Shown piece by piece: positions 1 through 15,167 of a stretch of DNA of 64,000 bases. This stretch comes from Terriglobia bacterium (lineage in GTDB: Bacteria > Acidobacteriota > Terriglobia > JAJPHL01 > JAPKYU01). Every line of letters starts with the position of its first letter. Within the stretch, counting starts at the first letter, position 1. The notes under the pieces are model-generated. The model was given only the letters and a program-made list of their open reading frames with translations, was not told the origin of the DNA and searched no databases. The stretch lies in contig CBDCVK010000002.1 in assembly GCA_965223005.1 (NCBI GenBank), forward strand, positions 160,001 through 224,000, written 5' to 3'. The position numbers and the translations under genes were made by a program.

Positions 1-92
1 AGTTGAGGGATTTTTACCCGAGGGTGTTTACGAAGAGGCCGTTCTAAAGCGGTTTTGATCTCAATCGCAAGGATAGAGCAAACGAAAGAGCC

Positions 93-8397: not shown

Positions 8398-9333
8398 TTA
8401 TTTTTTTCTGCTGGTGGGTATTGTGCTGGCCCGCGGCGTGGGTCTTCGTTTGGCGCGGGAAGTCAGCCTCTGGGCGGCAGAAATCAGGGCGCGTGTTCCC
8501 TCCGGCAACTGGTAGTCCTTGCGCACGGCCACGCCGATTTCGTGGGCGATGCGGAGGCCGCGCAACGGCACCAGCTTCAACTTGCCGGCGGTGGCTTCCT
8601 CTTCGGCATAGGTCTCGCCAATGATGGTGATGCCCATGCCGGCGGCCGCCAAGCGTTTGACCAGCACAATCCCGGTGGGTTCAAAGGCTACTTTCAACTG
8701 GCGCCGGTGAGGGAGCAAAATCCGGTCCAGCGCGGTGCGGGCGTGGCCCATCTCGGGGAGGATGAAGGGAAAATCCAGCAGTTCCTCCACGGCCACCGAG
8801 CGCCTGCTCGCCAGCGGATGGGCCGGCGGCAAGGCCGCCACCCAGCGGTCGCGCAGGAAGGGAATGATGCGCAGGTCGGGGTGCGCAGTAGGCAGCGAGA
8901 TAAAGCCGATGTCCAGGACGCCTTCGACCAGCTTGCGGACGATCCGGTCAGTAGTATGCCGGAAAATGCTGATGGCTACGGAAGGGTAGCGCGACCGGTA
9001 TTCTTCCAGCACCGGGGGGAGCACGTAGAGGCAGATGGATTCGGTTGCGCCGATGGTCAGCCGCACCGAGGGACGGCGCAGGTCGGCCACGGCCTGAATA
9101 GCCTGGCGGCGCAGGTCCAGCATCCGCCCTGCGTGTTCCAGCAGAACCATGCCTGGCTGGGTCAGGTGTACGCTTCGTCCCAGGCGGTCAAAGAGCCGGT
9201 AGTCAACTTCTTCCTCGATCTGCCGCACCTGCGCGCTGATAGCCGGCTGGGTCAGACCCAGCGTTTCGGCGGCCCGCGAAAAGCTGCGCAGACGAGCCAC
9301 CTCAACCACCGCGCGGATTTGGTCAAAATTCAT
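8398..9333 (-). CDS. LysR-family transcriptional regulator
   Basis: SFSRAAETLGLTQPAISAQVRQIE HTH plus substrate-binding domain. Confidence 0.95.
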   Translation of the reverse strand: MNFDQIRAVVEVARLRSFSRAAETLGLTQPAISAQVRQIEEEVDYRLFDRLGRSVHLTQPGMVLLEHAGRMLDLRRQAIQAVADLRRPSVRLTIGATESICLYVLPPVLEEYRSRYPSVAISIFRHTTDRIVRKLVEGVLDIGFISLPTAHPDLRIIPFLRDRWVAALPPAHPLASRRSVAVEELLDFPFILPEMGHARTALDRILLPHRRQLKVAFEPTGIVLVKRLAAAGMGITIIGETYAEEEATAGKLKLVPLRGLRIAHEIGVAVRKDYQLPEGTRALISAAQRLTSRAKRRPTPRASTIPTSRKK

Positions 9334-9543: not shown

Positions 9544-10446
9544 ATGGATTTTGACCAGATAGACACAATTATCGAGATTGCCAAGCACAACAGCTTCTCG
9601 CGGGCCGCCGAGCATCTCTACCGGACTCAGCCAGCGATCTCCAAGCAGGTGCGCTCGCTCGAGCAGGAGCTGGGACAGAAGCTGTTCCACCGGACTGGCA
9701 AGCAGGTGCAGCTGACAACAGCGGGGCGCATCCTGCTGGAGCACTGCCAGCAACTGGCCGAGCTGCGCCGCCAGGCCAAGGAAGCTCTGGAACGGATGCG
9801 TCACGTGCCGCGCGGGCGGCTGGCGGTGGGGGCCAATGAAGCCACCTCGCTCTACGTGCTGCCGCCGGTGTTTGCCGCCTTCGGCGCCCGCTATCCGGAA
9901 GTGCGCCTGCGGATTCACCGTAACTTCACCCGCAAGCTGGTGGAGCGCGTGCTGGCCAACACGCTAGATTTCGCGGTGGTCTCGTTGCCGGTGGACGAGA
10001 AGGACCTGGCGGTGCTGCCCCTGTTCCGCGACGAGCTGGTCGTGATTGTGCCTCCGAGGCACCCGCTGGCTGGCCAGCGGTCAGTGACGGTGGAACAGTT
10101 GGCCGATCACCGGCTGATTTTCCCTCGCACAGGGCGCACTCGGGCCCTGTTCGAACGGGTGTTCGCCAACCGCAGCCTGGAGCCGCGCGTCTCGCTGGAG
10201 CTAGCCAGCGTCGAGGCCATCAAGAAATTCGTGGCTGTCGGGCTGGGAGTTTCCCTGATCAGCCGAAGCTTCGCAGCGCAGGAGGCAGCCAACGGCACGC
10301 TGCGCCTGATCCCGCTGGAAGGCCTGAAGCTGGTGCGGGAGCTGGGCCTGATTCACCATCGAGACAAGTGCATCTGCCCGGTGATGGAAGCGTTCCTGAA
10401 ACTAGTCCAGGAGCTTTGCCCGAGGCTGTTGAAAAGTGACGGATGA
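9544..10446 (+). CDS. LysR-family transcriptional regulator (CysL-like)
   Basis: SFSRAAEHLYRTQPAISKQVRSLE HTH; EAIKKFVAVGLGVS; next to cysH. Confidence 0.95.
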   Translation: MDFDQIDTIIEIAKHNSFSRAAEHLYRTQPAISKQVRSLEQELGQKLFHRTGKQVQLTTAGRILLEHCQQLAELRRQAKEALERMRHVPRGRLAVGANEATSLYVLPPVFAAFGARYPEVRLRIHRNFTRKLVERVLANTLDFAVVSLPVDEKDLAVLPLFRDELVVIVPPRHPLAGQRSVTVEQLADHRLIFPRTGRTRALFERVFANRSLEPRVSLELASVEAIKKFVAVGLGVSLISRSFAAQEAANGTLRLIPLEGLKLVRELGLIHHRDKCICPVMEAFLKLVQELCPRLLKSDG

Positions 10447-10456
10447 TGAGGGAAGC

Positions 10457-10606
10457 GACCTGGCAGGCAACCCGGTCAGCGGAAAGACCACGTCTACCGA
10501 ATCCAACGCACGCGGGGAAATCGTCGCGGTGCTGTTCGACCCGAATAAAGCCCGGCGCAGTGCGCTCTACCCGCCTGCCCTAGTCCGGCTTGCGAAGCCA
10601 GACTAA
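10457..10606 (+). pseudogene. Orphan C-terminal gene fragment (DUF3592-like)
   Basis: Start-less frame DLAGNPVSGKTT...GEIVAVLFDPNKARRSALYPPALVRL; family assignment from memory only. Confidence 0.35.
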
Positions 10607-10686
10607 CCGGCCTGAGCCAACCGCAGAGATTCAGAGGCCCGCTAGAAAACCATCAGGTTGCCGGCCGGCCGAATCTTAGCCGAATC

Positions 10687-11376
10687 TTACTTGTGCAGGC
10701 CGCACTCGGTTTTCTCAGAGCCGGACCAGCGCCCGGCCCGCGGATCCTCCCCTGGGAGCACCTCGCGAGTGCAGTAAGTGCAGCCGATGCTGGGGTAGTT
10801 GCGGTCGTGCATTTCGTTGTACGGGACGTTGTGGAGCCGGATGTGTTCCCAGACTCGCTCCCAGGTCCAGTCCGCCAGGGGGTTGAACTTCACCAAGCCG
10901 AACTTTTCATCCCACTCCACCTTGCGCGTGTTCGCGCGCGTGGGAGCCTGGTCGCGGCGGACGCCGGTAATCCAGGCCGATAGCTTGGAGAGGTGAGCTG
11001 TTAGCGGCTCGACTTTGCGTATGCCGCAGCACTGGTTGGGCTGGCGGGTCCAAAGTGCGTCCCCGAAGCGCGCTGCCTGCTCGGCCGGCGTCAGCGCCGG
11101 GCGACAGGCTTCGATCTTCAGCGGGTATTGCGCGGCGATGCGCTCGCGCACCGTATGGGTCTCGGAAAACAAGAAGTCGGTGTCCAGGTAGAAGACGCGC
11201 GCGCCCGGATGGACCCGCGCCGCCATCTCGGCCAGCACCACATCTTCGGCGCCGAAGCTACAGGCGAGCGACATGCGCTCGTCGAACTGGGAATAGGCAA
11301 ACTCCAGCAGCGCCTCCGGCGGTTCGGTTTCGAACCGCGCCGCCAGTTGGGGAATGTTGTCCAAAGCGATGGTCAT
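10687..11376 (-). CDS. cysH: Adenylyl-sulfate (APS/PAPS) reductase, Fe-S type
   Basis: SFGAED, LDTD, CCGIRKVEPL, YPSIGCTYC, C-terminal ECGLH. Confidence 0.96.
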   Translation of the reverse strand: MTIALDNIPQLAARFETEPPEALLEFAYSQFDERMSLACSFGAEDVVLAEMAARVHPGARVFYLDTDFLFSETHTVRERIAAQYPLKIEACRPALTPAEQAARFGDALWTRQPNQCCGIRKVEPLTAHLSKLSAWITGVRRDQAPTRANTRKVEWDEKFGLVKFNPLADWTWERVWEHIRLHNVPYNEMHDRNYPSIGCTYCTREVLPGEDPRAGRWSGSEKTECGLHK

Positions 11377-11401
11377 CAGTGCTCCTTCCGGTATGCGACT
11401 C

Positions 11402-12217
11402 TCATGCCGCCCATGCCAGGCGCAGGCCCAAGGCCAGGTTCAAGGCTGCAATGCCAGTCTGGTAGTAGACTTCAGGAATCCGCCGGGTGAGCCGAGAGCC
11501 GAACAGCACCCCGGGTATGGAGCCCGCCGCCAGTGGCGCGAGCAAGTACGGATCAATGTTTCCGAGAGCCAGGTGGGCCACCGTACCGAACAGTGTGGCA
11601 ATAAGGCCGTAGAAGGTGGCCGTTCCGACCAACTGGCCCAGCCAGGCGGGCCGCCATAGCAGCAGCGCCAGCATCAACAGGCCGCCGCTGCCAATCGAAG
11701 TCAACGTTACGGCAAAGGAAATGGCGGCGCCCACCAATAAGGCAAACACCCGCATGTCGCGGCCGACAGGTTCTGGCTCCTCGCTGGCCGGCTGCCCGCT
11801 GGCCGGCTGCTCGCTGGGCGGTTCTGGGGTAGCCAGGCTAAAGGGACGCGCGGTCGCGGCCAGCAGCACGAGTGCCAGCATGATCAGCAGCAGGCCAAAT
11901 AGTTGCCGCGCCTGGCCGTTGACCAGCACGACGTCTTGCACGCGGGACAGCAACAGGGCTGCAGCCGCCGTTCCGGGCACGGCGCCGAGGATGAGCCACC
12001 GGCCCAGGCCCAGATGGACGTTCCCCAACCGCCGATGGGACAGGTAACCGGCGAACTTGGTGACGGTAGCCAGCGCCACACTGGTACCTATGGCCGTGCC
12101 GGCAGACACCGGCGTGAACAGCAGGAGCAGCGGAATCACCAGCGAGCCGCTTCCAATAGCACTGGCGCCTACCACCGTTCCACTAACCAGGCCGATCAGG
12201 ACGCCGATGCCGTTCAT
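11402..12217 (-). CDS. TSUP / TauE-SafE family sulfur-compound transporter
   Basis: Two repeats of the G..G.G.G.L motif (GASAIGSGSL, TLTSIGSGGL); ~8 hydrophobic segments; upstream of cysH. Confidence 0.9.
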   Translation of the reverse strand: MNGIGVLIGLVSGTVVGASAIGSGSLVIPLLLLFTPVSAGTAIGTSVALATVTKFAGYLSHRRLGNVHLGLGRWLILGAVPGTAAAALLLSRVQDVVLVNGQARQLFGLLLIMLALVLLAATARPFSLATPEPPSEQPASGQPASEEPEPVGRDMRVFALLVGAAISFAVTLTSIGSGGLLMLALLLWRPAWLGQLVGTATFYGLIATLFGTVAHLALGNIDPYLLAPLAAGSIPGVLFGSRLTRRIPEVYYQTGIAALNLALGLRLAWAA

Positions 12218-12402
12218 GCAGCATCTCCCATCTCATGCCGCTTCCGGATGTGTGAGGCGTCGAACGGACCCTGATAGCGGCCCGCGCCGGGCTGGCTGCG
12301 CCCGGCACTCTGGTGCCGACCGCTGGGCTGGTGCTGACCCCTGGGCTGGTCCTGACCTCTGAACTGTTTTCGATTCGGCACAGCTTCGTTTGCCAACCTC
12401 AT
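12214..12402 (-). CDS. Small Q/G/R-rich hypothetical protein
   Basis: 62 aa with GQDQPR/GQHQPS/GRHQSA repeats; its stop overlaps the TSUP ATG (ATGA). Confidence 0.4.
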   Translation of the reverse strand: MRLANEAVPNRKQFRGQDQPRGQHQPSGRHQSAGRSQPGAGRYQGPFDASHIRKRHEMGDAA

Positions 12403-12463
12403 CCATCCCCGCAGAAGTCCCGCTGGCTTCCGTCCGGGGGGCGTTGCTCTCGACTGGCTTTGG

Positions 12464-12500
12464 AAAGCAAAATGCCCGCCCATGACGTTACCGGGCGGGC
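12464..12500 (-). terminator. Attenuator terminator upstream of TSUP-cysH
   Basis: mRNA GCCCGCCC-11 nt loop-GGGCGGGC followed by AUUUUGCUUU. Confidence 0.75.
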
Positions 12501-12537
12501 TAAAATTAAAGCGAAACCAACTACCCAAAAGGAGGCA

Positions 12538-12603
12538 CTACCCGCCACGGCACATGGGCGGGCTACAACAGCTGCTCAGGAATGAACTAGCTAAATCAAT
12601 CAC
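12538..12603 (-). CDS. Cys-containing leader peptide MIDLASSFLSSCCSPPMCRGG
   Basis: GTG start, 21 codons, tandem TGT TGT plus TGC; overlaps attenuator segments 1 and 2. Confidence 0.7.
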   Translation of the reverse strand: MIDLASSFLSSCCSPPMCRGG

Positions 12604-12612
12604 GACAGGAGT

Positions 12613-12641
12613 AGAGTAGAACAATCGCACGAGGATTGCAA
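12613..12641 (-). promoter_or_regulatory. Sigma70-like promoter of the cys leader
   Basis: TTGCAA, 17 nt, TACTCT; 9 nt before the leader GTG. Confidence 0.6.
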
Positions 12642-12760
12642 GGAGAAAAATTGATCAGTAGGATAAGGTGCCGTTATGGAACAAGCCCGCACAGAATGGT
12701 CTTTACCGGCCCAGGCAGTTCCACTACACTGAGGGGCAAGCGGAGAAAGGCTTCTAATCC

Positions 12761-13195
12761 ATGGAGATCCTGAAAATTGCCGGCGTACCACCAGCTGTGG
12801 TCAGTTTGACGACAACCGTGCTGGAAGCCGTCCAGCTGATGGTCAGCAAACGGGTGGGAGCGGTCGCGGTGGTTCAAGGCGATCGGCTGGCGGGGATTTT
12901 CACCGAACGAGACGTGATGCTGCGGGTTGTGCTGGCTCGACACGATCCAGCGACCACCAAGATGATGGACGTAATGAGCGCCTCAGTGGAGTCGGCCACC
13001 GCGGATACGACGGCTGGAGAAGCCTTGGGGGTGATGATCGAGCGTCACTTTCGCCACCTGCCCATCCTGGATTCCGAGGGCCGGGTTGTGGGCATTCTCT
13101 CCGTCCGCAACTTGCTCCAAAGCCACGTGGAGGACCTGACTCAGCAGCTGGATTCGATGGAGAATTACCTGACCGCCGACGGCCCGGGCGGCTGA
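12761..13195 (+). CDS. CBS-domain pair protein
   Basis: LAGIFTERD and HFRHLPILD...VGILSVRNL CBS motifs. Confidence 0.93.
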   Translation: MEILKIAGVPPAVVSLTTTVLEAVQLMVSKRVGAVAVVQGDRLAGIFTERDVMLRVVLARHDPATTKMMDVMSASVESATADTTAGEALGVMIERHFRHLPILDSEGRVVGILSVRNLLQSHVEDLTQQLDSMENYLTADGPGG

Positions 13196-13237
13196 ATCTC
13201 GGTCAAATGTTCTTAGGTGGTTCTCTCCTCTCGGAAA

Positions 13238-13831
13238 CTAGCGGGTAGCCGCAGGTAGCGGGCTTGGGCGCTTGCGCACTCTGCGGGCGGTCAGCAGAGC
13301 GTACTGCAAGCTGCTTCCCACAACCAGTAGGGGTGTCAGCAGTAAGAGGATTCTGCGCCCCTGGTGCAACCACGCTGAGCCGTAGACCGCCTCCAGCAGC
13401 ACAGCAAAGACCGCGGCTATCTGCACGGCCGTGTTGGCTTTGCCGAGCGCCGTGGGAGGGAACCGGCGAATCTCGGTGGTCAGCAACAGCAGCACCACTA
13501 CCACGGTAATGGTAGCGTCGCGAGCCAGCACCAGCCCGGACACCAGCCAGGGCACCCGCCCGTTCCAGGCCAGAACCAGAAAGCAGGAGCTGAGCAACAG
13601 TTTGTCGGCCACCGGGTCCAGGTACATGCCCACCTGAGTCTTCTGCCGGAGCCGGCGGGCCAGCAGGCCGTCCAGGCTATCGGTAAGGGCCGCAACCAGA
13701 AGCAACCGCAGAGCCCAGTTGAGGTTGTCCTTGAGCAGGAAAAAGAGAATCAGCGGAAGAATGGTCAGCCGAAACAGGGTGAGCGAGTTCGGCAGGTTGA
13801 GAACTTTGCGAGGACGCCCTGCTGGTGTCAA
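13238..13831 (-). CDS. CDP-alcohol phosphatidyltransferase (PgsA-like)
   Basis: NLPNSLTLFR; DSLDGLLAR...G.YLDPVADK motif. Confidence 0.93.
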   Translation of the reverse strand: MTPAGRPRKVLNLPNSLTLFRLTILPLILFFLLKDNLNWALRLLLVAALTDSLDGLLARRLRQKTQVGMYLDPVADKLLLSSCFLVLAWNGRVPWLVSGLVLARDATITVVVVLLLLTTEIRRFPPTALGKANTAVQIAAVFAVLLEAVYGSAWLHQGRRILLLLTPLLVVGSSLQYALLTARRVRKRPSPLPAATR

Positions 13832-14142
13832 AGGTCCCCTCCAGCGCGCAGAAATTCCCCGACCGTAAGGCCAATCTTTCTCTCAAACCGTTCCGCCAGG
13901 GAGGGAATTTCCCCTACCGTCTCGTCCATCGCCACCCGCTCGACACGATGAAGGGGGTAGAAGATGGTGGAGAGCAAGCCGACGCCGGCCTCGCCAGCGA
14001 CGACTTGGCGTAACACCTCCTCGAACGCATTCAGGTCAATTCCTCGCACAGTAATACCAGCGGGCGTCAGCGCCACCAGTTCGCCCCAGATTTTTTCCTT
14101 TGGGCTATGCAACGTCAGGACCACAACCGAGCGGATCTCCAT
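13828..14142 (-). CDS. Conserved-looking hypothetical protein
   Basis: MEIRSVVVLTLHSPKEKIWG...FYPLHRVER; GAGG RBS; stop overlaps the pgsA-like start. Confidence 0.75.
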   Translation of the reverse strand: MEIRSVVVLTLHSPKEKIWGELVALTPAGITVRGIDLNAFEEVLRQVVAGEAGVGLLSTIFYPLHRVERVAMDETVGEIPSLAERFERKIGLTVGEFLRAGGDL

Positions 14143-14270
14143 GCTAGCCTCTTTGACCCCGTGAGGCCGGGCACTGTTCCAAATCTCGGACCGCCGCCTC
14201 AGTCGGGCCTGGCCCGCTGCTGGATTCACTTCTCATACCGCTCTCTCTGCCTTCCGGCTACTGTCTCCTG

Positions 14271-15167
14271 TCAGGGAGGGGACTCCGGTTCCAGCAAGTT
14301 CCTCAATCGTTCCCGCAGCTGCTGCCCGGCTTCGAATTCGGGTTGAAGGGCGCGGGAGCGTAGATTATCCCGCAAGTGCTCTAGTTTTTGGAGCATGGCG
14401 TTGAGTGCCTGCTCAACGTTGTCGGTGTTGGTGAGACAAATGTCGCGCCACACCGAGTACGGGCTTTCGGCCAGCCGAATCGTGTCCCGCAGGCCTCCGC
14501 CGGCTAGCTCCAGGCCGCCGGCGGCATGCGGGAGGTCGTCTGCTACCAGCCTCTCGAGAACGGTGGAGGCCAGCGCCGTGGCCACAAGCTGTGGCAGGTG
14601 GCTGGTCCAGGCCACCACCTCATCGTGCAGTTCGGCGTCCATCACCATCACATGCGCGCCGAAGCGGTCCAGCCAGCCCCGAAACTCGTGCGCGACGGGT
14701 GTTTCCAGATGCTCGCGGAGCAGGGGAGTGAGAATGTAGGAGGCGCCGCGGAACAGGTCCGCCTCGGCGTTTTCCACTCCCCGTTTCTCGCTGCCGGCCA
14801 TGGGGTGTCCGCCGATGAACAACGGGCTTTGCGGGCTGTCGCAAAAAAGCAGGGTGGCGCGGTCCGTGATCTGGGTCTTGGTGCTTCCTGCGTCCGTCAC
14901 CAGGGCTCCTGGCGCCGCAGCCTGGCGCACGCGCGGCAGCAGGTCCAGGATGGTTGAGATCGGGGTCGCCAAGTACACTAGGTCAGCGCCTCGGACCCCG
15001 GCTTCCAGGCTCTCGTACGCCTGGTCAATGACGCCAGCTGCCAGTGCCTTCTCCAACGTGACGCGCCGTCCCACTCCGGCGATGACCCCCTGGAACCCAT
15101 GCTTCTTCAGAGCCAGTCCCAGGGAACCGCCGATCAGGCCAACGCCGAGAATGGTGACGCGCTTCAT
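14271..15167 (-). CDS. tyrA: Prephenate dehydrogenase
   Basis: GVGLIGGS, TDAGSTK, GGHPMAGSE, HDEVVAWTSHLPQ. Confidence 0.94.
   Translation of the reverse strand: MKRVTILGVGLIGGSLGLALKKHGFQGVIAGVGRRVTLEKALAAGVIDQAYESLEAGVRGADLVYLATPISTILDLLPRVRQAAAPGALVTDAGSTKTQITDRATLLFCDSPQSPLFIGGHPMAGSEKRGVENAEADLFRGASYILTPLLREHLETPVAHEFRGWLDRFGAHVMVMDAELHDEVVAWTSHLPQLVATALASTVLERLVADDLPHAAGGLELAGGGLRDTIRLAESPYSVWRDICLTNTDNVEQALNAMLQKLEHLRDNLRSRALQPEFEAGQQLRERLRNLLEPESPP

What the first reader, a model, noticed from the sequence alone, without database searches (positions are those of the whole stretch)
12464..12641. Cysteine-sensing ribosome-mediated transcription attenuator upstream of TSUP-cysH
Seen (minus strand): promoter TTGCAA-17-TACTCT, then a near-leaderless 21-codon ORF MIDLASSFLSSCCSPPMCRGG (12603-12538). 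The tandem Cys codons sit immediately before segment 1 AGCCCGCCC (12564-12556). Segment 2 GGCGGGU (12546-12540) ends the ORF. Segment 3 (12501-12493) is an exact repeat of segment 1 and pairs with segment 4 (12481-12474) in an 8-bp GC stem followed by AUUUUGCUUU. Established: this is the 1:2 / 2:3 / 3:4 logic of trp/his-type attenuators, and Cys-codon leaderless sORFs control sulfur genes in mycobacteria. Inference: stalling at Cys-Cys covers segment 1, allows the 2:3 antiterminator to form and switches on the sulfur transporter and APS reductase under cysteine starvation. I know of no description of this in Acidobacteriota, and the ORF track misses it.
Basis: partly seen in the sequence, partly recalled or inferred. 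Interest (0 to 1): 0.85.

Follow-up and report, generated by a model that had tools for sequence, protein, structure and literature searches.

The report
Cysteine-sensing leader-peptide attenuator of sulfur genes
A tiny cysteine-rich reading frame followed by a transcription stop signal sits in front of two sulfur-assimilation genes, most likely switches them on when cysteine runs short, and recurs in front of such genes in many Acidobacteriota.

Summary
The minus strand carries TTGCAA-17-TACTCT, a GTG 9 nt later, a 21-codon ORF (Cys-Cys at codons 12-13, Cys at 18), four segments able to pair 1:2, 2:3 and 3:4, and a U-tract. A TSUP permease gene and cysH follow.

One genome alone proves little: 64 of 1228 short ORFs beside terminator-like sites also contain Cys-Cys. 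The evidence is comparative.
- The ORF, its Cys codons and all four segments are conserved in two congeners. A different poly-Cys ORF plus terminator holds the same place in another genus.
- Cys-rich short ORF plus terminator lies upstream of cysH on the gene's strand in 26 of 80 class genomes (opposite strand 5 of 80) and 15 of 19 Acidobacteriota-named loci (other phyla 2 of 61).
- In 42 leaders, a ribosome at the stop codon would cover the terminator arm's upstream partner. One stalled at the Cys run would not.
- The same genome has a second such leader before sulfite reductase.

Verdict: a real ribosome-mediated Cys attenuator (about 0.8). It matches no Rfam family, and six literature searches found no report from Acidobacteriota. 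No experiment supports it yet.

The parts
12636..12641 (-). -35-like hexamer TTGCAA
   Evidence: It reads TTGCAA in G001 and TTGAAA in G003 at the same place.
12613..12618 (-). -10-like hexamer TACTCT, 17 nt after the -35 and 9 nt before the GTG
   Evidence: Invariant in the 3 genomes of the genus. In 23 of 42 leaders a TAnnnT hexamer ends 5-11 nt (mode 9) before an in-frame start. It was not reported by the consensus scan.
12538..12603 (-). Leader ORF: 21 codons plus UAG, MIDLASSFLSSCCSPPMCRGG*. There is no Shine-Dalgarno sequence in front, so it is probably leaderless.
   Evidence: In G003 the frame opens at the equivalent GTG. G003 differs by a 3-nt in-frame insertion and by amino-acid changes in the N-terminal half only.
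12565..12570 (-). Tandem Cys codons UGU UGU (codons 12-13), the proposed stall site
   Evidence: Invariant in the genus. Runs of 2-6 Cys codons occur in the other 39 leaders.
12550..12552 (-). Third Cys codon UGC (codon 18), in the loop of hairpin 1:2
   Evidence: Invariant in the genus.
12556..12564 (-). Segment 1, AGCCCGCCC. It pairs with segment 2 (-14.4 kcal/mol) or with segment 4.
   Evidence: A ribosome with Cys 12 or 13 in its A site would cover it (footprint geometry is inference).
12540..12546 (-). Segment 2, GGCGGGU: the antiterminator strand, made of the last two sense codons and the first base of the stop codon
   Evidence: The duplex with the terminator arm is -16.8 kcal/mol and ranks 1 of 42 against non-cognate leaders. 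The C-to-U change in G003 keeps pairing as G-U.
12493..12501 (-). Segment 3, AGCCCGCCC: the 5' arm of the terminator and an exact repeat of segment 1
   Evidence: Invariant in the genus.
12474..12481 (-). Segment 4, GGGCGGGC: the 3' arm of the terminator
   Evidence: 3:4 hairpin -19.9 kcal/mol. Invariant in the genus, while the loop varies.
12464..12473 (-). U-tract AUUUUGCUUU
   Evidence: Invariant in the genus.
12218..12463 (-). Spacer between the terminator and the TSUP start codon. It includes an 18-nt tandem repeat at 12310-12361.
   Evidence: The spacer is about 130 nt shorter in G003. The overlapping ORFs have no Pfam match.
11402..12217 (-). First regulated gene: TSUP/TauE-family membrane permease, 271 aa
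   Evidence: Pfam PF01925, E = 4.4e-37.
10687..11376 (-). Second regulated gene: cysH, an APS/PAPS reductase of 229 aa
   Evidence: Pfam PF01507, E = 6.4e-50. NCBIfam NF002537 scores 265.5 bits against a cut-off of 154. TIGR02055 (APS reductase) scores 232.3 against 235.3. CC...CxxC...ECGLH is invariant in 11 relatives.

Best explanation
This is a ribosome-mediated (leader-peptide) transcription attenuator that senses charged tRNA-Cys and controls the two-gene operon TSUP permease-cysH.

Proposed steps (all inferred from sequence; none tested experimentally):
1. Transcription starts at or within a few bases of the GTG at 12603, so the leader ORF is translated as a leaderless message.
2. With cysteine plentiful, the ribosome runs to the UAG at 12540-12538 and covers segment 2. 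Segment 3 then pairs with segment 4, and RNA polymerase terminates at the U-tract 12473-12464.
3. With no ribosome at all, 1:2 and 3:4 form (or the nested 1:4 plus 2:3), and termination also follows.
4. Only when the ribosome stalls at the tandem UGU codons (12570-12565) is segment 1 covered while segment 2 stays free. Segment 2 then captures segment 3 as it emerges, segment 4 has no partner, and the polymerase reads on into the permease and APS/PAPS reductase genes.

The element belongs to a large family of poly-Cys leaders in front of assimilatory sulfate-reduction operons in Acidobacteriota. I found no description of this family in the searches made here.
For: SHOWN BY SEQUENCE
- All parts are present at the stated coordinates.
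- The hairpin energies are close enough for a switch: 1:2 -14.4, 2:3 -19.0 and 3:4 -19.9 kcal/mol.
- Leader fold z = -4.63, with 0 of 200 shuffles as stable.
- The downstream genes are a TauE/TSUP permease and cysH.

CONSERVATION IN THE FAMILY
TSUP orthologues were found in 3 of the 6 other genomes of the family, and all 3 carry a leader.
- G001 and G003 keep the promoter hexamers, the GTG, the Cys codons, all four segments and the U-tract. The N-terminal codons, the 2-3 spacer and the terminator loop vary.
- G003 has a 3-nt in-frame insertion and a pairing-compatible C-to-U change in segment 2.
- G006, another genus with a 65% identical TSUP, has a different ORF, MIMFRPVGSQPRMACCCCRRCWCGLTVSTG*. 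Its stop codon lies 26 nt before its own terminator, and its 2:3 duplex is -19.0 kcal/mol.

CONSERVATION IN THE CLASS AND PHYLUM
The rule was: ORF of at most 60 codons, containing CC and at least 3 Cys, with a hairpin plus T4 within 150 nt.
- In 80 cysH loci that I picked from the rows listed (long contigs, spread over families), 26 of 80 were positive on the cysH strand, 25 of them with clear poly-Cys runs. The opposite strand gave 5 of 80.
- In 80 named loci, 15 of 19 Acidobacteriota-named loci were positive against 2 of 61 from other phyla. The opposite strands gave 3 of 19 and 2 of 61.
- The operon behind the leader differs between genomes: TSUP-cysH here; sir-cysG parts-cysH; cysD-cysN-cysH.

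MECHANISM TESTS ON 42 LEADERS
- The distance from stop codon to terminator arm is 22-41 nt in 41 of 42.
- Free energy gained by pairing the terminator's 5' arm before its 3' arm exists: median -12.1 kcal/mol with a ribosome at the last Cys of the first run, -3.8 with a ribosome at the stop codon, and -6.1 after shuffling the spacer.
- 31 of 42 leaders have z below -1.64. The window's values are -15.6, -7.4 and -8.2, with z = -2.75 and 0 of 60 shuffles as good.
- The partner strand ends a median of 12 nt before the stop codon, and its sequence follows that of the terminator arm from family to family.
- Cognate pairs rank a median of 5 out of 42 against non-cognate ones. The window ranks 1.

OTHER SUPPORT
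- Leaders use the rare codon UGU for 178 of 248 Cys codons (72%). Flanking long ORFs use it for 94 of 510 (18%).
- The same genome has a second leader, MVQFGRRELRLCCPTPGCCCPCGRLSGGRFVS* plus terminator, in front of sulfite reductase. It is conserved in G001 and G002.
- Contigs from RNA libraries bridge the terminator (12225-12509 and 12408-12572), which is compatible with read-through transcripts.
Against: - There is no experimental datum. The transcription start, translation of the ORF, termination at 12465-12473 and the response to cysteine are all untested.
- The -10 hexamer matches the sigma-70 consensus at only 3 of 6 positions, and the consensus scan missed both promoter and terminator.
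- The window's leader has only 3 Cys codons, and Cys-Cys short ORFs beside terminator-like sites are common by chance in this genome (64 of 1228; 82 of 1200).
- With the whole leader present, the minimum-energy fold keeps the 3:4 terminator in every ribosome state modelled, including stalling. Antitermination must therefore depend on the order of folding, which was not simulated.
- A pause at the third Cys codon (12552-12550) would cover segment 2 and favour termination.
- The antiterminator test fails for some leaders: 11 of 42 have z above -1.64, and L182 and L183 rank 41 of 42.
- The leader is not universal. Three class families had 0 of 15, 0 of 9 and 0 of 12, although one further genome of the second family was positive. 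G003 lacks the sulfite-reductase leader.
- The genomes compared are related, so the counts overstate independent support. I chose the 80 class loci myself.
- The RNA evidence consists of assembled contigs at depth 3-5, which cannot show ends or strand and could include DNA.
Confidence: 0.8

Rival explanations
1. Translational attenuation of the mycobacterial kind. The poly-Cys ORF controls downstream genes by freeing or masking their ribosome-binding site, and the hairpin plus U-tract plays no regulatory part.
For: The only experimentally studied poly-Cys leaderless ORFs (M. smegmatis Ms5788A) act on translation without a terminator (passages of 10.1101/834739). Actinobacterial cys leaders lack terminators (passages of PMC1262725).
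Against: A GC-rich hairpin followed by a T-run lies 22-41 nt after the stop codon in 41 of 42 leaders. Its 5' arm has a sequence-matched partner inside the ORF. In the window the TSUP ribosome-binding site lies about 250 nt beyond the terminator, too far for simple occlusion by the Cys tract.
Confidence: 0.05
2. An independent small gene. The ORF encodes a functional Cys-rich micropeptide (for example a metal- or redox-active one) with its own terminator, and TSUP-cysH has a separate promoter in the 246-nt spacer.
For: Some leader families keep a constant C-terminal peptide (GAGRLLT* in 9 leaders). Cys-rich micropeptides exist in bacteria (this last point is recalled, not from a call).
Against: - Apart from the Cys runs, the peptides differ between families, and the N-terminal half varies even within the genus.
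- The conserved C-terminal codons are the ones that pair with the terminator arm.
- The ORF is tied to sulfate-assimilation operons of differing gene content.
- No promoter-like site was reported on the minus strand of 11000-14000.
- RNA-library contigs run across the terminator.
- The 9-leader peptide identity was my selection criterion, so the purely synonymous changes seen there prove nothing.
Confidence: 0.05
3. A structured 5' leader controlled by something other than the ribosome, such as a ligand-binding riboswitch, an RNA-binding protein or Rho. On this view the Cys codons are incidental to a G+C-rich sequence.
For: The leader is unusually stable (z = -4.63). Two LysR-type regulators and a CBS-pair protein are encoded next door. 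Cys-Cys ORFs arise by chance in this genome.
Against: - There was no Rfam match above threshold in the window region (best 22 bits against a gathering score of 49.5), nor in 14 other leader loci.
- Poly-Cys runs of up to 6 codons recur in frame with a promoter-proximal start and with a stop at a fixed distance from the terminator.
- They occur on the gene's strand far more often than on the other (26 against 5 of 80).
- They use the rare UGU codon.
- No conserved ligand-pocket-like structure is apparent beyond the alternative hairpins.
Confidence: 0.07
4. A chance ORF beside a constitutive, leaky terminator that merely damps expression.
For: The single-genome statistics are weak, and the U-tract is interrupted.
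Against: Conservation of the Cys codons, the frame and the four segments in the genus. An analogous leader in another genus. Enrichment at class and phylum level.
Confidence: 0.03

Closest known systems
Classical leader-peptide transcription attenuators of enterobacterial amino-acid operons (trp, his, leu, thr, pheA, ilv)
   Same: A short ORF rich in the codon of the pathway's end product. Mutually exclusive 1:2, 2:3 and 3:4 pairings. An intrinsic terminator before the first structural gene. Ribosome position chooses the fold. The mechanism is described in the introduction passages of 10.1101/834739; the rest is textbook knowledge, recalled.
   Different: The amino acid sensed is cysteine. The ORF appears to start at the 5' end of the RNA without a Shine-Dalgarno sequence. 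Segment 1 repeats segment 3 exactly, so it can also pair with segment 4. The phylum is Acidobacteriota. There is no sequence similarity to these elements and no Rfam hit.
Polycysteine-encoding leaderless short ORFs of mycobacteria (Canestrari et al. 2020, 10.1101/834739; passages read)
   Same: A leaderless short ORF with consecutive Cys codons upstream of cysteine or sulfur metabolism genes, with ribosome stalling at Cys codons relieving attenuation.
   Different: The mycobacterial elements act on translation: the Cys tract pairs with the downstream Shine-Dalgarno sequence and no terminator is involved. Here a hairpin plus U-tract follows the ORF, and the switch strand pairs with the terminator arm. 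The phylum differs and homology was not tested.
uORFC-8-2 motif upstream of cysS in Rhodobacterales (Brewer et al. 2021, PMC8632094; passage read)
   Same: A predicted ribosome-mediated transcription attenuator with two tandem Cys codons (positions 14-15 there, 12-13 here), two stems and a terminal U-run.
   Different: It controls the Cys-tRNA synthetase gene in an alphaproteobacterial order, not sulfate-assimilation genes. It starts with AUG behind a normal leader. No comparison of sequence or structure model was possible here.
Leaderless leader peptides of Deinococcus deserti, including a 10-residue peptide with two Cys before cysS (de Groot et al. 2014, PMC4007540; passages read)
   Same: Transcription start and translation start coincide, the peptide is enriched in the relevant residue, and transcription attenuation was proposed.
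   Different: The phylum and the target gene differ. The paper's list of 14 leaders is in a supplementary table that I could not open.
Cys leader peptides without terminators upstream of cys/cbs operons in Actinobacteria (Seliverstov et al. 2005, PMC1262725; passages read)
   Same: Runs of Cys codons near the stop codon of a short ORF upstream of cysteine biosynthesis genes, found by comparative genomics.
   Different: No conserved terminator hairpin was found there, and Rho dependence was suggested. Here the terminator is the most constant part.

Membership tests
Ribosome-mediated leader-peptide transcription attenuator (trp/his type) | [quoted passage not shown] | tested here: met
   3 Cys among 21 codons, two of them in tandem, upstream of TSUP-cysH. 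Orthologous and analogous leaders carry 3 to 10 Cys.
Ribosome-mediated leader-peptide transcription attenuator (trp/his type) | Intrinsic terminator between the leader ORF and the first structural gene | tested here: met
   8-9 bp G+C stem of -19.9 kcal/mol followed by AUUUUGCUUU. Stem and U-tract are invariant in the genus. It was not picked up by the simple scan because of its loop length.
Ribosome-mediated leader-peptide transcription attenuator (trp/his type) | An antiterminator pairing that excludes the terminator, and whose upstream strand is covered by a ribosome at the stop codon but free when the ribosome stalls at the regulatory codons | tested here: met
   The 2:3 pairing is -19.0 kcal/mol. 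Segment 2 consists of the last two sense codons plus the first base of the stop codon. The stall, stop and shuffle values are -15.6, -7.4 and -8.2 kcal/mol. This is a computational test only, and the equilibrium fold still favours the terminator.
Ribosome-mediated leader-peptide transcription attenuator (trp/his type) | A 1:2 hairpin that sequesters the antiterminator strand when the leader is not being translated | tested here: met
   -14.4 kcal/mol, with both strands invariant in the genus apart from one G-U-compatible change. It was not examined in the other leader families.
Ribosome-mediated leader-peptide transcription attenuator (trp/his type) | The leader ORF is translated | tested here: inconclusive
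   There is no Shine-Dalgarno sequence. The start lies 9 nt after the -10-like hexamer, and the same spacing class occurs in 23 of 42 leaders. Supporting signs are an in-frame 3-nt indel, a fixed distance from stop codon to terminator and the UGU bias. No ribosome profiling data were available.
Ribosome-mediated leader-peptide transcription attenuator (trp/his type) | Read-through rises when the cognate amino acid or charged tRNA is scarce | not testable with these tools
   Only assembled RNA-library contigs were available. They bridge the terminator but carry no information on growth condition.
Mycobacterial polycysteine leaderless-sORF attenuators | Leaderless short ORF with consecutive Cys codons upstream of Cys or sulfur genes | tested here: met
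   The leaderless state is inferred, not mapped.
Mycobacterial polycysteine leaderless-sORF attenuators | Control at the level of translation, through pairing of the Cys tract with the downstream Shine-Dalgarno region and without a terminator | tested here: not met
   A terminator follows the ORF, and the TSUP ribosome-binding site is about 250 nt further on. This element works like a classical attenuator and is not filed in this family.
Any curated RNA family (Rfam 15), including leader, riboswitch and Acidobacteria-specific motifs | Covariance-model score at or above the family's gathering threshold | tested here: not met
   In window 10500-14500 the best hit was anti-hemB at 22 bits against 49.5. 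Fourteen other leader loci gave 0 matches at gathering scores.
uORFC-8-2 motif (cysS, Rhodobacterales) | Located upstream of cysS, with the motif's consensus sequence and structure | tested here: not met
   The genes downstream here are TSUP and cysH, not cysS. No model of the motif was available, so the sequence and structure consensus was not compared.

The most novel reading that the evidence does not exclude
The window's element may be one member of an ancient, phylum-wide poly-Cys attenuator system. On this reading the system is the main switch of assimilatory sulfate reduction in Acidobacteriota. It would be loaded by leaderless 70S initiation and tuned by the rare, wobble-read UGU codon, and it would move between operons of different gene content. 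In some lineages, constraints on the nascent peptide (the constant GAGRLLT end) or on the released short RNA could give the leader a second function beyond cis attenuation.
Probability: 0.25. Interest if true: 0.75.

Novelty: new member of a known kind. Interest (0 to 1): 0.6.

Why it matters
- Gene regulation in Acidobacteriota is almost unstudied. A 2010 survey noted that almost none of the attenuators predicted in this phylum had an assigned function (PMC2965389, passage).
- Cysteine was long the amino acid without a described leader-peptide attenuator. The authors of 10.1101/834739 wrote in 2020 that they knew of none, and the one they then characterised acts on translation.
- The family found here would give cysteine a classical terminator/antiterminator version. 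It is widespread (26 of 80 class loci and 15 of 19 named phylum loci).
- It marks which genes these bacteria treat as part of cysteine supply, including a TSUP permease whose substrate is unknown.
- It offers a compact, protein-free cysteine sensor, and a clean test case for how leaderless translation couples to transcription.
- It also flags short ORFs that gene callers omit.

Tried and rejected
- Consensus promoter/terminator scan. It reported neither element, because of its own limits: loop of at most 8 nt and at least 4 of 6 matches in the -10. I did not take this as evidence of absence.
- Rfam hit anti-hemB (22 bits against 49.5, E = 0.058). Rejected as a chance match to two G+C hairpins.
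- The search for related loci with the TSUP protein. 246 pattern matches, none confirmed.
- Genome-wide scans of G000 for Cys-Cys short ORFs plus terminators or promoters. They are too noisy to give a statistic. The candidates I followed lie inside long coding frames or lack a terminator (C10:1136509, C10:897831-898094, C3:109562 and C5:250898) and were dropped.
- sat-cysC of G000 has no Cys leader.
- Mean probability that the terminator arm is paired. This measure separated the states poorly: 41 of 42 leaders reached 0.5 with a ribosome stalled at the first Cys, 39 of 42 at the last Cys of the run, and still 15 of 42 with a ribosome at the stop codon. The window scored 0.83 at the stop. I replaced it with the free-energy measure.
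- Leaders dropped before the 42-leader tests. G006_L004 and L089 failed my T4 rule. G006 was analysed separately.
- Synonymous-only variation in nine GAGRLLT* leaders. This is circular, because I selected them by identical peptide.
- RNA libraries. No contig covers 12573-12660, but an uncovered part in low-depth contigs shows nothing about a transcription start.
- ORFs overlapping the leader or spacer on either strand: 0 Pfam matches for 5 of 5.
- No covariance model was built. The leader families are too diverse for one alignment, and a model was not needed for the verdict.
- Supplementary tables of 10.1101/834739, PMC4007540 and PMC8632094 could not be opened. They may list further Cys leaders.
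Full report
WHAT IS THERE

Reading the minus strand of 12300-12800 confirms every element and coordinate of the finding.
- TTGCAA lies at 12641-12636, followed by a 17-nt spacer and TACTCT at 12618-12613.
- GTG at 12603 follows 9 nt later, with no Shine-Dalgarno-like sequence in between.
- The 21-codon ORF MIDLASSFLSSCCSPPMCRGG* ends at 12538.
- The Cys codons are UGU UGU at 12570-12565 and UGC at 12552-12550.
- Segment 1 is AGCCCGCCC at 12564-12556. Segment 2 is GGCGGGU at 12546-12540.
- Segment 3 at 12501-12493 repeats segment 1 exactly. Segment 4 is GGGCGGGC at 12481-12474.
- AUUUUGCUUU occupies 12473-12464.

The genes on either side were identified with Pfam.
- Downstream on the same strand lie a TauE/TSUP permease (12217-11402, PF01925, E = 4.4e-37) and cysH (11376-10687, PF01507, E = 6.4e-50).
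- cysH passes NCBIfam NF002537 (265.5 bits against 154) and falls just short of the APS-reductase model (232.3 against 235.3).
- cysH carries the CC...CxxC...ECGLH residues, which are invariant in 11 relatives. That these residues mark the iron-sulfur APS-reductase type is my recollection, not a tool result.
- Upstream, a CBS-pair gene is transcribed divergently from 12761. The hairpin is therefore not the terminator of a preceding gene.

IS IT MORE THAN CHANCE?

Taken alone, barely.
- The leader is unusually stable: -59.1 kcal/mol, z = -4.63, and 0 of 200 shuffles fold as well.
- But in this 61.5% G+C genome, 64 of 1228 short ORFs next to 802 terminator-like sites contain Cys-Cys. A looser rule gave 82 of 1200.
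- The candidates I followed from these scans lie inside coding frames or lack a terminator.
- The simple consensus scan listed neither the promoter nor the terminator.

The case therefore rests on comparison with other genomes.

THE GENUS AND FAMILY

The family holds 7 genomes including this one, and TSUP orthologues were found in 3 of the 6 others. All three carry a leader.
- Between the window, G001 and G003 (90% mean identity), several parts are invariant. These are the -10 hexamer, the GTG and the block from the Cys codons through segment 2 and 20 nt beyond it. Segments 3 and 4 and the U-tract are invariant too.
- The one exception in that block is a C-to-U change in segment 2 of G003, which keeps pairing as G-U.
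- The N-terminal codons change the amino acid, the 2-3 spacer and the terminator loop vary, and G003 has one extra codon. This is the pattern expected of a translated sensor whose peptide does not matter.
- In G003 the frame is closed upstream of the equivalent GTG, which supports 12603 as the start.
- G006, a different genus with a 65% identical TSUP, has an unrelated-looking ORF, MIMFRPVGSQPRMACCCCRRCWCGLTVSTG*. Its stop codon lies 26 nt before its own terminator, and the 2:3 duplex is -19.0 kcal/mol.

THE CLASS AND PHYLUM

cysH was found in 170 of 251 class genomes. That tally includes two unpublished genomes, and no other claim rests on them.

Four of the first 30 loci, which had 1.5-kb flanks, already showed the same arrangement. 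It reads promoter, poly-Cys ORF, hairpin plus T-run, then TSUP or an unannotated 395-codon open frame, then cysH.

I then fetched 4.5 kb upstream of cysH for 80 genomes. I chose them from the rows listed, preferring long contigs and spreading them over families. The rule was fixed: ORF of at most 60 codons, containing CC and at least 3 Cys, with a hairpin of -12 kcal/mol or better directly before T4 and within 150 nt.
- 26 of 80 were positive on the cysH strand, one of them doubtful. The opposite strand gave 5 of 80, none with a run of three Cys.
- By family the counts were 0 of 15, 0 of 9, 7 of 13, 0 of 12, 6 of 8, 4 of 5, 6 (plus the doubtful one) of 15, and 3 of 3.
- One further genome of the 0-of-9 family (G177, locus L042), which was not among these 80 loci, was positive.

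An independent set of 80 named loci came from a cysH alignment.
- 15 of 19 loci whose titles name Acidobacteriota groups were positive. These include Terriglobales, Acidobacteriaceae, Candidatus Sulfotelmatobacter, Pyrinomonadaceae and Polarisedimenticolia.
- Only 2 of 61 loci from other phyla were positive (Nitrospirota, Bacillota, Chloroflexota, Actinomycetota and others).
- The opposite strands gave 3 of 19 and 2 of 61. An earlier and stricter scan is.

The operon behind the leader differs between genomes: sulfite reductase-siroheme genes-cysH in one group, cysD-cysN-cysH in another. The leader is thus more constant than the genes it precedes.

No Rfam family matches the window region or 14 other leader loci.

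MECHANISM

For 42 leaders the stop codon lies 22-41 nt before the terminator's 5' arm in 41 cases. Two further leaders were dropped there because they failed my T4 rule.

I asked how much free energy the 5' arm gains by pairing upstream before its 3' partner has been transcribed.
- The median is -12.1 kcal/mol when everything up to 12 nt beyond the last Cys codon of the first run is masked, which models a stalled ribosome.
- It is -3.8 kcal/mol when the mask reaches 12 nt beyond the stop codon, and -6.1 after shuffling the free spacer.
- 31 of 42 leaders have z below -1.64.
- The window gives -15.6, -7.4 and -8.2 kcal/mol, with z = -2.75 and 0 of 60 shuffles as good.

The partner strand sits in the last codons of the ORF. 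It ends a median of 12 nt before the stop codon, and in the window it overlaps the stop. Its sequence follows that of the terminator arm from family to family.

Each leader's own strand binds its own arm better than other leaders' strands do. The median rank is 5 of 42, 24 of 42 rank in the top five, and the window ranks first. Two leaders, L182 and L183, rank 41st.

For the window itself the energies are 1:2 -14.4, 2:3 -19.0 and 3:4 -19.9 kcal/mol.

Together with the AUG that follows it, it is complementary to the end of the terminator loop plus segment 4 (GCCCGCCCAUG / CAUGGGCGGGC). The unconstrained fold therefore nests 1:4 around 2:3 at -49.6 kcal/mol. A helix next to the U-tract can thus form unless segment 1 is covered and segment 3 is captured, which is exactly the state of stalling at Cys 12-13.

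These are limits:
- With the full RNA present, the minimum-energy fold keeps 3:4 in every ribosome state. Read-through must therefore depend on 2:3 forming first, as in the textbook attenuators. I could not simulate co-transcriptional folding.
- The ribosome footprint I used (about 15 nt either side of the first P-site base) is from general knowledge.

FURTHER SIGNS OF A TRANSLATED SENSOR

- In 23 of 42 leaders a TTGnnn-16..19-TAnnnT match ends 5-11 nt (mode 9) before an in-frame start codon, as it does in the window (examples).
- Leaders use UGU for 178 of 248 Cys codons (72%). Flanking long ORFs of the same loci use it for 94 of 510 (18%), and G000 ORFs of 500 codons or more for 984 of 3917 (25%).

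THE SAME GENOME HAS A SECOND COPY

Upstream of the 753-residue sulfite reductase on another contig lies a second leader. It reads TTGACA-18-GAAAAT-6-ATG, then MVQFGRRELRLCCPTPGCCCPCGRLSGGRFVS*, then a hairpin and U-tract. It is conserved in G001 and G002 but absent in G003. sat-cysC has none.

EXPRESSION

Four metatranscriptome runs, labelled sponge metagenome, hold 36-46% of the sampled words. Their contigs are 99-100% alike to the window and have depth 3-5.
- They cover cysH, TSUP and the leader.
- Two of them bridge the terminator, at 12225-12509 and 12408-12572. This is compatible with read-through RNA.
- Contigs show neither ends nor strand, and they may include DNA.

WHAT IS KNOWN

Six full-text searches found no report of a Cys leader in Acidobacteriota. 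I read passages only, by term search, in the following papers.
- 10.1101/834739: mycobacterial poly-Cys leaderless ORFs that act on translation without a terminator. In 2020 the authors knew of no uORF-mediated cysteine attenuation.
- PMC1262725: actinobacterial Cys leaders without terminators.
- PMC8632094: the uORFC-8-2 motif, with tandem Cys codons plus a terminator, before cysS in Rhodobacterales.
- PMC4007540: leaderless leader peptides in Deinococcus, including a two-Cys peptide before cysS.
- PMC2965389: almost none of the attenuators predicted in Acidobacteria had an assigned function.
- PMC13236596 and PMC4833913 added nothing specific.

Supplementary tables were closed and may list further cases.

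VERDICT

The element works like a trp/his-type attenuator and meets the sequence-level criteria of that kind. It does not meet the defining translational mechanism of the mycobacterial Cys elements.

It is a new member, in fact a large new family, of a known kind. My confidence that it is a functional cysteine-responsive transcription attenuator is about 0.8, and all of the support is computational.

Noticed in passing
G000 contig C8, about 82700-82950 (+), outside the window; locus L125 about 780-1030: A second poly-Cys leader (MVQFGRRELRLCCPTPGCCCPCGRLSGGRFVS*) with a hairpin and U-tract lies directly upstream of the 753-residue sulfite reductase. It is conserved in G001 and G002. In G003 it is replaced by a region without a Cys ORF.
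   Followed up: partly
window 12310-12361: An 18-nt tandem repeat of 2.9 copies (88% matches) sits in the untranslated spacer between the terminator and the TSUP start. G001 appears to have fewer copies, and G003 lacks the whole insertion of about 130 nt. Its function is unknown.
   Followed up: partly
42 leader loci (for example L073 1544-1666, L187 1215-1360): Cys codons in the leaders are mostly the rare UGU (178 of 248). Neighbouring long ORFs prefer UGC (416 of 510). This could tune the sensitivity of stalling or avoid extra G+C pairing.
   Followed up: partly
L073, L077, L078, L081, L082, L084, L187, L188, L190 (last 8 codons of each leader ORF): Nine leaders from Terriglobales-type genomes end in the same peptide, GAGRLLT*, and many others carry S-G-x-G after the Cys run. 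Part of this is explained by pairing with the CCCACCGCCAG terminator arm. Whether the peptide itself matters remains open.
   Followed up: partly
window 12761-13195 (+): A 144-residue CBS-pair protein is encoded divergently from the leader promoter. A similar divergent gene appears upstream of the leader in G001, G003 and G006, judged by eye from the sequences. A role in sulfur or adenosyl-ligand sensing is conceivable but untested.
   Followed up: no
window 9544-10446 (+) and 8398-9333 (-): Two LysR-family regulators lie next to cysH. Their best NCBIfam match is the selenium-metabolism-associated LysR model, and the CysB models score lower. All matches are below their cut-offs. They could add control at transcription initiation.
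   Followed up: no
G006 locus L211, roughly 330-70 nt upstream of the NIR_SIR-like gene match: After TAGAAT and 6 nt there is a GTG-initiated 20-codon ORF with 5 non-adjacent Cys (my hand translation of the sequence printed). A hairpin follows, but without a clear U-tract. It may be a degenerate or different kind of Cys leader.
   Followed up: no
G000 contig C5, about 152000-154000 (-): ATP sulfurylase (PF01747) is followed by an open frame whose translation contains a P-loop-like GLPCSGKS stretch. I read this frame as an APS kinase from memory; it was not scanned against any family library. No Cys leader precedes the pair. If that reading is right, only part of the sulfate pathway is under the leader system in this genome.
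   Followed up: partly
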